A stretch of 64,000 bases of DNA from Escherichia coli (GTDB taxonomy: Bacteria > Pseudomonadota > Gammaproteobacteria > Enterobacterales > Enterobacteriaceae): assembly GCF_030013205.1 (NCBI RefSeq), contig NZ_CP122649.1; one strand, given 5' to 3'. Shown in pieces: positions 24,001 to 27,000 of this stretch. Each line of letters opens with the position of its first letter. The first letter of the stretch is position 1. Position numbers: made by a program.

Positions 24001-27000
24001 TTGACCGGTTGGTAATTTAGTCTTGTAAAAATATCCCCAGATGGGTACTTCACCATCTGGGTGAGTACCCTTTATCAAATAAAGGTACTCAAATGAAATT
24101 TGATTTAAAATCTTCACCACGCCATATTCAACGCCTGACGAATATAGCCAGCGTGATAAGCGGTATAAATGGGATTTATGTAATTATTGACAATAAGGTG
24201 AGTACACCTTATTTCAACACCCAAAACAATGTCTGTGTTTTACCTAACGGTGATTATAGCGATGAGAGATTTGTCAAGCTAATTGAAGGATTCATATGTC
24301 ATGAAGCAGGACACGGTCGTTATACAGAGCATGAAGTATACCGTGAAGCTTTTGTTGGAGAATTGATCAATGCAGATGGCTTCATCAGTATTGATGATGA
24401 CTTGAAGGCTGATTTTCAAAACCTAAAACAAAAGCAAAAAGCATATGCTCGTGCTTGTCGACTAAAAGGACTTATTAATCTTTTTGATGATGTCCAGATG
24501 GAAGAGAAGACGGGTATTGATTATCAGGAGGCAAAAAAACGCCTCGCGGTGACTTATGCCTTGATGGTTGAAGCTGGGCGTATGACGGTTGATATTTCTT
24601 CAACCCCTCAAAACCCGGTTCAGTTTATTGAAATGTACCTGCTTAATACATTGCGGGTTAACGTTCTCCAACAAGAAGGGCATAAAGAAACGCTTGACCC
24701 ATTTTTCGATTATGCAAAGAAAATCCTTGCACCTGTAACTTCAGAAGTCGATGAGATCATTCATCAAGCTCTAAGTTGCAAAAGTACGCAAAATTGCGAT
24801 TCTCTGGCGCGTAAAACTCTGGCTCTTTTAGAGCGTTTAAGGGATGAAGCAAAAGAGAAACAGCAAGAAGAGGAGCAGTCGAAAGACCCGCATGACGATA
24901 CAGATGAATCATCTGGCTCTGAGAATGAACCTGATACCGAACCCAATGGTGATAGCCAGGGTGAAGGGGATGGTGATAAAGAAGGTCAAGGCGATGATTC
25001 TGGTGATGGTAAGGCGCCTGCGGAAGGTAATGGGTTACCGGACCAATCCGGAGGGGATGAACAAAATGCTGAGAACTCTAACGGCGAACCTGATGGTGAG
25101 TCTGAAGGTGATGAATCGGCGACCCCCGGCTCGGATGATGCTGACTCGACACCTTCCCTAAACGACAGTTCAAATGGAAATTCTTCTGATGGGGAAAGTA
25201 ACTTTTCTCCTGAACAGTGGGATATGCTTGCCAAATTGCTGGATGATTTTTTAAACAGTGATGAGGAAAGCGAGGATTTTCATGAGGTTCTTGCAAAAGA
25301 GATCTCCGTAATTGCTGCCAGTGTGTCGGATGAGGTTAAAGCTGAATTTGGTGCAAGTGAGTGGGATGTTCCAGATTTGAACATTGATCTGAATGTCTAC
25401 AATGAAGCATTAAATATCAGCCAGACCCTTGGGGCAGATTTATCTGTTTTACAGCAGGTAAAAATGCGTGGTCAATTTAAAACCCGTGATAGAGGCTTGT
25501 CATTCGATATTAATCGACTGATCCAGTCTCCGATGGGTGTTAGGGATGTATTTCGGTCACAAAGCGAATCTAAAAACCGGGGCCACGTCGGCTTGGTCAT
25601 TGTTCGTGATATTTCAGGTTCAATGAGTCTGGAACACCGTTATATCCATGCAATTAAGACTGACCTTGCATTAACTCTGGCAATTGAAGCTATTTCAAAA
25701 ATGCATGTTGCTAATGTGATTTATCCGTTTGTAGACAAAGATTTTGAAGTTATCAAAACGTTTGATGAAAACGCGGAAGAGAAACTTTCAAAATTCTCAC
25801 TTGGCTGCAAGGGCAATAATACCCCAACGGGTTCTGCATTAAATGCTGCTTTAGAGTTGTTACTTGAAAGCCAGTTTGACAGGAAAATTGTTTTCCTTAT
25901 TACTGATGGTTATCCGACTGAGTCGGCTTACACCATTAATGATGTTTTTTCAGTTGCTGAAAGTAACGGCATTGAAATCGCTGGTGTTGGTATTAAAACT
26001 GATGTGTTGATGGGTTTTAATGAGGGCACCTTCGTAAATGTTGATGATATTTCTTTATTGCCGAATGAGGTCAGTAAATTAGTACATCAAATTCTATCTA
26101 ATTAAACTCTACCCAATCGGGGCAAAACGACGCCCGGTTGGGTCGCTTTGCTCCCTGAAGGATTAAGGAGCAATATATGACTCAGATAAAGACTTACCGT
26201 GTCGAGTATGAAAAAGTCGGGACGATGCATCGTGTCCGTATTTTTGGTCGCATGGGTGAAATTGTCAAAAGTGAATTGCCAGAAGAAAGAATTCTCCGGG
26301 ATGTATCTATACCAGAGGGTAATGGAGAAATGGCAACGTCAATGGTTGATGGTTTTATCCAGCGTCTTGAAAATATCGGCTTCAAGACTGAAGCGTAATT
26401 GTTGAGGGCTCTTGTGGGCCCTCATTCTTAGATTCTGCGTTGTGGGTTTCTCCCTGTTTTCTGCATCGCAGAGGGCATTGAGAAACCCACAATGCCAGAT
26501 AAGAGAGAACAAATGACTTATGCATCCCAGGCTGTTAAGCGTACACCACATGAAGTCACTGACCACTTTATAAAAATGGTTCACGCTCGTATAGCGGAAG
26601 TATCAGGCTGGCGCTATGTATTCGATAGAATACCGGCATTTAAAGACGCTTGTGATAAAGCACCTGGCCAGGTTCCTTGCCCATTTAGTGGGGTCGGGAA
26701 ATCAAAGTTCCGGTTCCGTAAAAAGGACCTCTTTACCGGTTGTGCCATTCACAATGATTTTCCAGTGAATGCATTTTGTGACGGTATTGATGTATTGGCA
26801 GAGTACTACAAGCTGAGCAAGACCCAGACTTGTAAGAAGATCCTGACTGATTTCTTTGGGATGGATTTGTACGCTCCATTAACTGATGCGGATCTCGAAA
26901 GTGAACGTCGTTATAAATCAACAGTTCGTGCAACCGAAACGCTTGACAGCGATGAAGTTGAAAAACGAGGGCGTAAACTTGAAGTGATATATCACTATAC

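What the first reader, a model, noticed from the sequence alone, without database searches (positions are those of the whole stretch)
24843..25285. About 150-residue extremely acidic D/E/G/S-rich low-complexity segment inside the vWA protein
Between the N-terminal region and the C-terminal vWA domain the protein reads EAKEKQQEEEQSKDPHDDTDESSGSENEPDTEPNGDSQGEGDGDKEGQGDDSGDGKAPAEGNGLPDQSGGDEQNAENSNGEPDGESEGDESATPGSDDADSTPSLNDSSNGNSSDGESNFSPEQWDMLAKLLDDFLNSDEESEDF. Such polyanionic disordered stretches can mimic nucleic acid or bind metal ions or basic proteins. One copy of the dispersed palindrome (25194) lies inside this segment.
Basis: seen in the sequence. Interest (0 to 1): 0.45.

Follow-up and report, generated by a model that had tools for sequence, protein, structure and literature searches.

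The report
Acidic flexible linker of plasmid CobT-like protein
The very acidic stretch is real, but it is the flexible, disordered tether that nearly every protein of this CobT-like family carries between its two folded halves, so it is an ordinary family trait and not a special device of this plasmid.

Summary
Confirmed: codons 251-397 of the 670-aa ORF 24093-26105 (+) encode the quoted acidic segment. It is the only one of its kind in the window, and the gene is identical in more than 200 IncHI1 plasmids (R27, pHCM1), so it is not an assembly artefact.

The segment has three parts:
- the acidic end of a long helix (aa 251-263);
- a disordered core of about 110 aa (aa 263-372; 34 D/E, 3 K/R, 3 hydrophobic; AlphaFold pLDDT 40-57);
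- a conserved helix plus acidic motif (aa 373-397) that belongs to the folded C-terminal module.

The protein is a divergent CobT-like adaptor. It has an M48-peptidase-like N-domain with an invariant HExxH, then the linker, then a VWA domain with an intact MIDAS site. Its gene follows a CobS-like AAA_5 ATPase gene and a DUF3150 gene.

All 131 diverse family representatives have a net-negative, hydrophobic-free linker at the same position (median 95 aa, range 21-165). Linker sequence and length drift freely (dN/dS 0.46 against 0.12-0.14 in the domains; repeat copy-number variants occur). Solved cobaltochelatase CobT has an equally acidic, disordered linker of about 90 residues.

Best reading: a polyanionic flexible tether in a motor-adaptor complex. 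DNA mimicry is not excluded. It gains some interest because the related IncC AAA_5 gene pair is a published anti-restriction function, but it is disfavoured.

The parts
24093..26105 (+). Gene for the 670-aa CobT-like VWA adaptor protein (WP_000667080.1, annotated 'VWA domain-containing protein')
   Evidence: ORF. 100% identical to pHCM1 and R27. A family profile hits solved CobT 9uka_G at E=1.7e-40.
24093..24881 (+). N-terminal domain (aa 1-263), M48-like zinc-metallopeptidase fold
24300..24314 (+). HEAGH (H70-E71-x-x-H74) motif
   Evidence: H70, E71, H74 and D133 are invariant, and E132 and E137 at least 90% conserved, in 131 sequences. 129 of 132 representatives have HExxH. The motif is absent at the aligned position of true CobT.
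24843..24881 (+). Acidic end of the last N-domain helix (aa 251-263, DEAKEKQQEEEQS)
   Evidence: Part of helix H232-263 in both models. An E/Q/K-rich consensus is conserved across the family.
24882..25208 (+). Disordered polyanionic linker core (aa 264-372)
   Evidence: pLDDT 40-57 and no secondary structure. Aa 263-372 hold 34 D/E, 3 K/R and 3 hydrophobic residues. dN/dS is 0.46 against 0.12-0.14 in the domains.
25195..25205 (+). One copy of the dispersed palindrome AAAGTAACTTT, encoding E368-S-N-F371 at the end of the linker
   Evidence: The 23 nt around it are identical in the 90%-identical IncHI1B copy.
25209..25285 (+). Conserved amphipathic helix plus acidic motif (aa 373-397, PEQWDMLAKLLDDFLNSDEESEDFH), the first element of the folded C-terminal module
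   Evidence: Helix 373-388 at pLDDT 94-96. L387 is L in 108 of 131 sequences, and D395 is D in 115 of 131. Aa 369-397 are 93% identical in the IncHI1B copy.
25458..26102 (+). VWA domain proper (about aa 456-670)
   Evidence: Pfam VWA 7.6e-08. Foldseek top hits are NorD VWA and Rea1/MDN1 MIDAS domains.
25608..25622 (+). MIDAS motif D506-I-S508-G-S510
   Evidence: D506, S508, S510, T577 and D605 are invariant in 131 sequences.
21457..22509 (+). CobS-like AAA_5 ATPase, the presumed motor partner
   Evidence: Pfam AAA_5 3.8e-32. Weak CobS match. 28% identical to IncC Vcrx089, E 1.8e-25. Syntenic in L003, L004, L005, L007 and L010.
22548..22817 (+). 89-aa ORF between the ATPase and DUF3150 genes; a variable gene sits at this position in the module elsewhere
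   Evidence: No family hit. No detectable similarity to vcrx090.
22888..24015 (+). DUF3150 protein, a conserved third member of the module
   Evidence: Pfam PF11348 1.4e-22. Always directly upstream of the CobT-like gene.
26177..27745 (+). 73-aa ORF and a Toprim_3/DUF7146 primase-like gene, conserved downstream neighbours
   Evidence: The same order (VWA, 88-aa ORF, DUF7146/Toprim_3) is seen in L007.

Best explanation
The segment is the inter-domain linker of a CobT-like adaptor protein. The adaptor works with the CobS-like AAA_5 ATPase encoded 1.6 kb upstream.

By homology with the solved CobS-CobT and NorQ-NorD complexes, three steps are inferred. The N-terminal M48-like domain docks on the small helical subdomain of one ATPase subunit at the rim of the hexamer. 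The C-terminal module (helical extension plus VWA/MIDAS) sits at or in the central pore. The roughly 110-residue polyanionic, hydrophobic-free chain between them is a flexible tether. It lets the two halves move apart and hold a client protein between them while ATP hydrolysis rotates or pulls the VWA end.

The uniformly negative charge keeps the chain expanded and soluble. It also keeps it from sticking to the acidic partner proteins or to nucleic acid. Only composition, sign of charge and a minimum length are selected, so sequence and length drift through slippage.

Shown here: disorder, position, composition, family-wide conservation of these properties, relaxed constraint, and homology to CobT. 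Inferred: the complex with the AAA_5 protein, the tether mechanics, and the client (possibly DUF3150 or a host target).
For: Disorder and architecture:
- AF2 gives confident domains at aa 8-263 and 373-670, and pLDDT 40-57 with no secondary structure at aa 264-372.

Family-wide properties:
- All 131 representatives, about 20-45% identical to the query, have a linker at the same alignment position. Median length is 95 aa (21-165), D+E 30%, K+R 2.6%, hydrophobic 1%. Net charge is negative in 131 of 131.
- Close relatives with conserved flanks have linkers of 40-167 aa. These include (QQQDx)n copy-number variants of 50-155 aa.
- Between the IncHI1 and IncHI1B copies, the linker is 72% aa identical with dN/dS 0.46. 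The domains are 90-94% identical with dN/dS 0.12-0.14.

Homology to solved systems:
- The family profile hits solved cobaltochelatase CobT (9uka_G, E=1.7e-40) over both domains. CobT's own linker holds 38 D/E in 79 residues.
- bioRxiv 10.64898/2026.07.21.739949 describes CobT as an M48C-like N-domain, a disordered linker of about 90 residues, and a VWA with a shaft. CobN is held between the N and C domains.
- PMC13036017 reports that the NorD linker is unresolved, spans 45-67 A in different states, and that its deletion abolishes function.
- Foldseek top hits of the C-domain are NorD VWA and Rea1/MDN1 MIDAS.

Gene context:
- AAA_5, DUF3150 and CobT-like gene order is conserved in the 5 related loci that have enough flank, as in the window.

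Reach:
- A 110-residue coil has an expected end-to-end distance of about 78 A (using the denatured-chain scaling law from own knowledge). That is enough for the spans seen in NorQD.
Against: No experiment or complex model here shows that the IncHI1 AAA_5 and VWA proteins bind each other.

The tether model explains length tolerance and disorder, but it does not by itself demand such strong acidity. NorD's linker is not acidic, having hydrophobic stretches.

Two of 131 representatives manage with 21-33 aligned linker residues, so long reach is not strictly required.

The client of the plasmid module is unknown.
Confidence: 0.6

Rival explanations
1. Cis pseudo-ligand. MIDAS sites complete their metal coordination with a carboxylate from the ligand. 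The D/E-rich linker could occupy the protein's own MIDAS site, or the ATPase pore, and keep the adaptor auto-inhibited until a client displaces it.
For: The MIDAS residues D506, S508, S510, T577 and D605 are invariant. The same combination of AAA_5, a D/E-rich stretch and MIDAS recurs in midasin, where the family profile aligns across the region preceding and including its MIDAS domain (that this region is D/E-rich is own knowledge), and in true CobT. The NorQD authors consider a 'MIDAS motif-remodelled linker'. Net charge is negative in 131 of 131 linkers.
Against: There is no conserved acidic motif inside the linker core that could be a defined ligand. In the CobST structures the linker is simply invisible and not bound. 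The hypothesis overlaps with the tether model and does not exclude it.
Confidence: 0.17
2. Nucleic-acid mimic or bait. The polyanionic chain imitates DNA. It recruits DNA-binding defence proteins of the recipient (for example type I restriction enzymes) or nucleoid proteins to the motor and the HExxH domain, which then remodel or cleave them.
Against: True CobT, which has no known DNA role, has an equally acidic linker, so acidity predates any anti-restriction use. Known mimics (Ocr, ArdA) are rigid folded proteins with fixed charge spacing (own knowledge). This chain is disordered and its length and sequence are hypervariable. The published phenotype needed only vcrx089-090 supplied in the recipient. 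The IncC linker is only mildly acidic and is G/Q/N/K-rich. No ArdA or Ocr family match was found.
Confidence: 0.1
3. Divalent-metal reservoir. The carboxylate-rich chain concentrates Mg2+, Co2+ or Zn2+ near the MIDAS or HExxH sites.
For: The relatives are metal-inserting chaperones (CobST, NorQD, ChlID). The protein has two metal sites.
Against: There are no conserved binding motifs and no His or Cys enrichment in the linker. Related linkers such as (QQQDx)n are D-poor. No metal-insertion client is encoded nearby.
Confidence: 0.04
4. A neutral, slippage-generated spacer with no selected property beyond not folding. Its acidity would be a mutational or compositional by-product.
For: Relaxed constraint (dN/dS 0.46). 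Repeat expansion and contraction among relatives. Weak remnants of 24-27-nt repeats.
Against: dN/dS is still well below 1. The sign of charge is the same in 131 of 131 divergent linkers, K+R is held at 2.6% and hydrophobic residues at 1%. That is not expected from drift alone.
Confidence: 0.09

Closest known systems
CobT subunit of aerobic cobaltochelatase CobNST (solved 2026: 9uka and related entries; bioRxiv 10.64898/2026.07.21.739949)
   Same: The three-part plan is the same: an M48C-like N-domain, a disordered acidic linker of about 90-110 residues, and a VWA/MIDAS domain with an N-terminal helical extension. The partner is a CobS-type AAA_5 ATPase. The profile match is E=1.7e-40 over both domains.
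   Different: The plasmid protein keeps an invariant HExxH where CobT has none. No CobN or B12 genes are nearby, and DUF3150, recombination and primase genes are found there instead. The window protein itself does not reach the Pfam CobT or NCBIfam CobT thresholds.
NorD, adaptor of the MoxR-class ATPase NorQ (PMC13036017; 9qh6, 9qh8, 9qhd)
   Same: It has an N-domain, a long unresolved linker and a VWA with a pore-inserting finger. It is the best structural match of the C-domain. Linker deletions abolish its function.
   Different: NorD's linker is not polyanionic and contains hydrophobic stretches. Its client is the membrane enzyme cNOR.
Midasin/Rea1 (D/E-rich region preceding the MIDAS domain) and BchD/ChlD of Mg-chelatase (acidic proline-rich linker before the integrin-I domain)
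   Same: They show the same recurring combination of an AAA_5-type motor, an acidic low-complexity linker and a MIDAS domain. Rea1/MDN1 MIDAS is among the top fold hits, and midasin is hit by the profile. The ChlD architecture is described.
   Different: Motor and MIDAS are fused in one polypeptide in both (six AAA modules in midasin; a single inactive AAA-like domain in BchD/ChlD). Their clients are ribosome assembly factors or the porphyrin-binding H subunit. The acidity of these linkers is from own knowledge and was not measured here.
IncC / SXT-R391 hde operon (vcrx089 AAA_5, vcrx090, ssb, bet, exo) (PMC7498323, PMC11602122)
   Same: Vcrx089 is homologous to the window's AAA_5 ATPase (28% identity, E 1.8e-25). 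The IncC row continues into DUF3150 and a 598-aa HExxH/VWA protein homologous to the window protein (E 1.4e-25).
   Different: In IncC the ssb-bet-exo genes are inserted into the module. The second gene (vcrx090, 302 aa) has no detectable counterpart in IncHI1, which has an 89-aa ORF there. The IncC linker is less acidic. Only vcrx089-090 have a tested phenotype.
Phage cobST-like gene pairs (PHROGs 249, 459, 1576, 17276; PMC8651126)
   Same: They also pair a CobS-like ATPase with a CobT-like protein that is often annotated as a peptidase.
   Different: They are proposed to hijack host CobN for B12 synthesis, which is untested. No DUF3150 link was examined here.

Membership tests
CobT-like VWA adaptor superfamily (Pfam CobT PF06213 + CobT_C PF11775) | [quoted passage not shown] | tested here: met
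   The window protein alone hits only VWA models. A profile of it with 130 homologues hits solved CobT 9uka_G at E=1.7e-40 in three stretches that cover both domains. Homologues at 21-25% identity hit PF06213 and PF11775 directly.
CobT-like VWA adaptor superfamily (Pfam CobT PF06213 + CobT_C PF11775) | N-domain, disordered linker and VWA with an intact MIDAS site | tested here: met
   AF2 model. MIDAS D506, S508, S510, T577 and D605 are invariant. The N-domain has an M48-like fold, as reported for CobT_N.
CobT-like VWA adaptor superfamily (Pfam CobT PF06213 + CobT_C PF11775) | Encoded next to a CobS-type AAA_5 ATPase | tested here: met
   AAA_5 at 3.8e-32, with a weak TIGR01650 CobS match. Synteny holds in the 5 related loci with enough flank.
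Functional cobaltochelatase CobT (EC 6.6.1.2) | Reaches the curated CobT or cobaltochelatase model cut-offs | tested here: not met
   The only match is 27.8 bits to TIGR02442, whose cut-off is 779. No Pfam CobT hit.
Functional cobaltochelatase CobT (EC 6.6.1.2) | A CobN partner and cobalamin genes in the same element or host | tested here: not met
   No such gene is found among the annotated neighbours or in the related loci, which carry ssb, recT, yqaJ and primase-like genes instead. That enterobacterial hosts use the CobN-independent route is own knowledge.
MoxR-class AAA+ / VWA motor-adaptor pairs (NorQD, CbbQO, RavA-ViaA) | The VWA partner has a NorD-like fold and is co-encoded with an AAA_5/CbbQ-type ATPase | tested here: met
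   Foldseek rank 1-3 are NorD VWA chains, E 1.9e-08. Relatives of the ATPase carry CbbQ_C.
MoxR-class AAA+ / VWA motor-adaptor pairs (NorQD, CbbQO, RavA-ViaA) | A physical hexamer-adaptor complex with the VWA extension in the pore | not testable with these tools
   No multimer prediction or experiment was available.
DNA-mimic anti-restriction proteins (Ocr, ArdA type) | A folded scaffold that displays carboxylates in a fixed, DNA-like array | tested here: not met
   The linker is predicted disordered. It is hypervariable in length and sequence. No ArdA or Ocr family match was found.
DNA-mimic anti-restriction proteins (Ocr, ArdA type) | Binds and inhibits type I restriction enzymes | not testable with these tools
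   This needs biochemistry or conjugation assays.
IncC hde anti-restriction unit (Vcrx089 + Vcrx090) | A homologue of Vcrx089 (AAA_5) | tested here: met
   blastp gives 27.8% identity over 284 aa, E 1.8e-25.
IncC hde anti-restriction unit (Vcrx089 + Vcrx090) | A homologue of Vcrx090 | tested here: not met
   The 89-aa ORF at the equivalent position has no detectable similarity to the 302-aa Vcrx090.
IncC hde anti-restriction unit (Vcrx089 + Vcrx090) | An anti-restriction phenotype | not testable with these tools
   Published only for IncC.

The most novel reading that the evidence does not exclude
The IncHI1 module may be an establishment or anti-restriction machine of conjugative elements. 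It comprises the CobS-like AAA_5 motor, DUF3150, and the CobT-like protein with a retained HExxH peptidase site, polyanionic linker and MIDAS domain. In this reading the DNA-like polyanionic linker acts as bait. It draws DNA-binding defence proteins, such as type I restriction complexes, to the motor and peptidase for remodelling or cleavage.
Probability: 0.1. Interest if true: 0.75.

Novelty: new member of a known kind. Interest (0 to 1): 0.3.

Why it matters
The acidic segment by itself is a routine family trait and needs no special explanation.

What matters is the context it exposed. A conserved, uncharacterised gene module sits on about 2,000 sequenced enterobacterial resistance plasmids (IncHI1, IncHI2, IncC and relatives). 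It consists of a CobS-like ATPase, DUF3150, and a CobT-like adaptor that, unlike true CobT, keeps a peptidase-type HExxH site. It travels with ssb, recombinase and primase-like genes. Its ATPase homologue in IncC is already known to defeat type I restriction.

If the adaptor and its linker take part in that function, this would be a new mechanistic class of anti-restriction system. It would also be a possible target for limiting plasmid spread.

Tried and rejected
- **Assembly or repeat artefact:** rejected. Tandem Repeats Finder and the repeat search found only weak 24-27-nt remnants, and the gene is identical in more than 200 independent assemblies.
- **Alternative-frame ORFs inside the segment** (+ frame 24844-25161, a basic 105 aa; three antisense ORFs of 60-82 aa): treated as by-products of GAx/GGx-rich coding sequence. 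The main frame is continuous with two conserved domains and shows dN/dS below 1. They were not searched separately.
- **Direct phmmer against PDB sequences:** gave only a weak VWA hit. The profile search was needed.
- **Foldseek against afdb50:** unavailable.
- **PADLOC:** no meaningful hit, only Walker-A-level matches for the ATPase.
- **Literature:** the DUF3150 search found one irrelevant preprint. The 'IncHI' + 'von Willebrand' search matched 'InChI' and was useless.
- **A basic partner within the module:** rejected. All module proteins are acidic, pI 4.4-5.9.
- **Mapping window features with pHCM1 coordinates:** this works only from about 15.8 kb onward. Upstream the window lacks about 4.1 kb that pHCM1 has, so gene assignments of palindrome copies before 15.8 kb were recomputed by offset and remain approximate.
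- **Tandem paralogy of the five hypothetical genes downstream:** only two pairs show similarity.
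Full report
**1. The observation**

The window carries an ORF at 24093-26105 (+) of 670 aa. Nucleotides 24843-25285 are in frame and encode residues 251-397. The 147 residues are 33% D+E, 14% S and 13% G. Between residues 251 and 350, 30-residue windows hold 0-1 hydrophobic residues and a net charge of -7 to -11.

Among all 115 stop-to-stop frames of at least 100 aa in the window, no other comes close. The most acidic 100 residues here hold 36 D/E and 1 hydrophobic residue. The runner-up has 24 D/E and 34 hydrophobic residues.

The DNA has no true tandem repeat, only a 24-nt, 2.1-copy, 77%-match trace and a few 63-75% similar 24-27-nt pieces. The gene is 100% identical in the IncHI1 plasmids pHCM1 and R27, and at least 99% identical in 216 plasmid records. 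It is therefore real and not an assembly artefact.

The remark about a palindrome is also correct. AAAGTAACTTT lies at 25195-25205. It is one of 14 exact AAAGTWACTTT copies in the window, where 0.04 are expected.

**2. Anatomy of the segment**

An AlphaFold2 model built on 131 homologues (mean pLDDT 85) gives confident domains at residues 8-263 and 373-670. It gives pLDDT 40-57 with no secondary structure for 264-372.
- Residues 251-263 (DEAKEKQQEEEQS) are the acidic end of helix 232-263.
- Residues 263-372 are the truly disordered polyanion, with 34 D/E, 3 K/R and 3 hydrophobic residues in 110.
- Residues 373-388 (PEQWDMLAKLLDDFLN) form a confident helix. It is followed by an acidic motif ending in D395.

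This last part is conserved across the family (L387 is L in 108 of 131 sequences; D395 is D in 115 of 131). It is 93% identical in the 90%-identical IncHI1B copy. It belongs to the folded C-terminal module, not to the low-complexity region.

**3. What the protein is**

Pfam sees only the C-terminal VWA domain. The upstream genes are an AAA_5 ATPase with weak CobS similarity, an 89-aa ORF and a DUF3150 protein. The downstream genes are a 73-aa ORF and a Toprim_3/DUF7146 primase-like protein.

An exhaustive HMMER search found 1,558 cluster representatives at E up to 1e-3. In an alignment of 131 full-length representatives, the invariant columns are H70, E71, H74 and D133 in the N-domain, and D506, S508, S510, T577 and D605 in the C-domain. 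The first group is an HExxH motif, with E132 and E137 at least 90% conserved. The second is a complete MIDAS site.

Several representatives hit Pfam CobT (PF06213) and CobT_C (PF11775) directly. The profile of the alignment hits the solved cobaltochelatase subunit CobT (9uka_G) at E=1.7e-40 over both domains.

The protein is thus a CobT-like adaptor but not a cobaltochelatase subunit. It fails the curated CobT and cobaltochelatase cut-offs. No CobN or B12 gene is in its neighbourhood.

**4. The linker across the family**

With the alignment anchored on query residues 250 and 369, every one of the 131 representatives has a linker there. Median length is 95 aa (interquartile range 80-109, extremes 21-165). 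Median D+E is 30%, K+R 2.6% and hydrophobic residues 1%. Net charge is negative in 131 of 131, from -3 to -72. An independent scan gave the same picture.

Among closer relatives, whose flanking domains align well, the linker ranges from 40 to 167 aa. Net charge is always negative, but the sequences are unrelated. One lineage (Buttiauxella, Yersinia and metagenomes) carries (QQQDx)n repeats that vary from 50 to 155 aa between otherwise equivalent proteins.

Between the IncHI1 copy and the IncHI1B copy, the linker is 72% identical in protein, with 33 non-synonymous and 15 synonymous codon differences. The domains are 90-94% identical. Nei-Gojobori dN/dS is 0.46 for the linker and 0.12-0.14 for the domains. 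Presence, position, disorder and sign of charge are conserved. Sequence and length are not.

True CobT has an equally acidic linker, with 38 D/E, 0 K/R and 6 hydrophobic residues in the 79 displayed residues.

**5. How it most likely works**

Two recent structural studies give the framework.
- In CobSTN, CobT consists of CobT_N, a disordered linker of about 90 residues that is never seen in density, and CobT_C. CobT_N binds the small subdomain of one CobS subunit. CobT_C sits on the concave face with a helical shaft. [quoted passage not shown]
- In NorQD, the NorD N-domain binds the small helical subdomain of NorQ, and a finger from the VWA domain enters the pore. The unresolved linker spans 45-67 A in different states, and linker deletions abolish function.

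By homology, the IncHI1 segment is the same element. It is a flexible tether between an anchor domain and a motor-engaged VWA domain. A 110-residue expanded coil has an expected end-to-end distance near 78 A and a contour length near 400 A (the scaling law is from own knowledge), which is ample for such spans.

The uniformly negative, hydrophobic-free composition would keep the chain expanded and soluble. It would also keep it repelled from the partner proteins, all of which are acidic with pI 4.4-5.9.

The disorder, composition, conservation pattern and homology are shown here. The complex with the AAA_5 protein, the mechanics and the client are inferred. I give this explanation 0.6.

**6. 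Rival explanations**

- **MIDAS pseudo-ligand (0.17).** A D/E-rich chain next to a MIDAS site could act as a cis pseudo-ligand. This is compatible with the recurrence of AAA_5, an acidic linker and MIDAS in midasin and CobT. No conserved motif marks such a ligand, however.
- **DNA-mimic bait (0.10).** In IncC plasmids the gene row is AAA_5 (vcrx089), vcrx090, ssb, bet, exo, DUF3150, then a 598-aa HExxH/VWA homologue. vcrx094 is on the same transcript. Deleting vcrx089-090 raises restriction by EcoKI and EcoBI 400-900-fold. But the acidity is shared with true CobT, the IncC linker is only mildly acidic, and the chain is disordered and hypervariable. The published phenotype was also complemented by vcrx089-090 alone.
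- **Metal reservoir (0.04).**
- **Purely neutral spacer (0.09).** The constant sign of charge and the depletion of K/R and hydrophobic residues argue against it.

**7. Context conservation**

The order AAA_5, variable gene, DUF3150 (or a gene in its position), CobT-like gene is found in the 5 related loci with enough flank. These are two metagenome contigs, two genome contigs and IncC. The module often sits next to SSB, RecT/Bet and YqaJ/Exo genes. In one case it has the same small ORF plus DUF7146/Toprim_3 gene downstream as in the window.

tblastn finds homologues of the VWA protein on 2,009 plasmid records and of the ATPase on 2,920. About 90% of these plasmids are predicted conjugative.

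**8. Novelty and verdict**

An acidic disordered linker between the N-domain and the VWA domain is the normal state of CobT-like proteins. Solved CobT shows it here, and midasin and ChlD have acidic linkers before their MIDAS domains (own knowledge). The finding is a correct observation of an ordinary family trait in a known, annotated plasmid gene. I rate it a new member of a known kind, with interest 0.3.

The more interesting by-products are the retained HExxH site in the mobile-element branch, the conserved module with DUF3150, its link to a published anti-restriction operon, and the dispersed palindrome.

Noticed in passing
window 3914, 5760, 8004, 9178, 11538, 13039, 18051, 18732, 25195, 28949, 32539, 37383, 44377, 52070: The 11-bp palindrome AAAGTWACTTT occurs 14 times exactly, against 0.04 expected (0 of 100 shuffles reach this). 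By offset mapping to pHCM1 annotation, about nine of the thirteen mapped copies lie inside genes. At 18718/18732 two copies sit back to back in the gap after trhI. The central base is T on the + strand for seven of the eight copies up to 18732 and A for five of the six after it. The copy inside the linker is conserved at the DNA level in an IncHI1B plasmid. It could be the operator of a KorB/ParB-like global regulator; this was not tested.
   Followed up: partly
window 24300-24314 and 24477-24503 (aa 70-74 and 129-137 of the VWA protein): The N-domain keeps an invariant HExxH plus a conserved N..ED.R.E motif, and it has an M48-like peptidase fold. Solved cobaltochelatase CobT lacks the HExxH at the aligned site. 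The mobile-element branch may therefore be an active zinc peptidase.
   Followed up: partly
window 21457-27745; L005 11007-19000; L003, L004, L007, L010: A conserved module is syntenic with the IncC hde operon, whose AAA_5 gene pair has published anti-type-I-restriction activity. The module is a CobS-like AAA_5 gene, a variable small gene, DUF3150 and a CobT-like VWA gene, sometimes followed by a small ORF and a Toprim_3 primase-like gene. The DUF3150 and VWA genes have never been tested.
   Followed up: partly
window 31576-33644: Two adjacent hypothetical genes of about 311-318 aa are paralogues (27.6% identity over 312 aa, E 2e-38). The two before them (29570-31503) share a weaker 100-aa similarity (E 4.5e-08). 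No function is known.
   Followed up: partly
window about 14.7-15.8 kb, and one base between 27746 and 28019: The window is not colinear with pHCM1. It lacks about 4.1 kb that pHCM1 carries upstream of about 15.8 kb (the annotated hypothetical and ATP-dependent helicase gene area), and it differs by a 1-bp indel near 27.8 kb. The window is therefore another IncHI1 backbone, possibly R27-like; only the VWA and AAA_5 genes were compared with R27.
   Followed up: partly
window 36901-37860, 40480-40692, 42278-43033 (pHCM1 annotation, approximate offsets): A Tus-like replication terminus-binding protein gene, an Hha/YmoA family gene and an IS1-flanked RepE (IncFIA-type) replicon lie downstream of the module.
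   Followed up: no
P0002, P0196-P0202 (relatives from Buttiauxella, Yersinia and metagenomes): Here the linker is replaced by perfect (QQQDx)n pentapeptide repeats. Copy number varies between near-identical proteins (50-155 aa). One source mis-named such a protein as TFIID subunit TAF12 because of the Q-rich repeat.
   Followed up: yes
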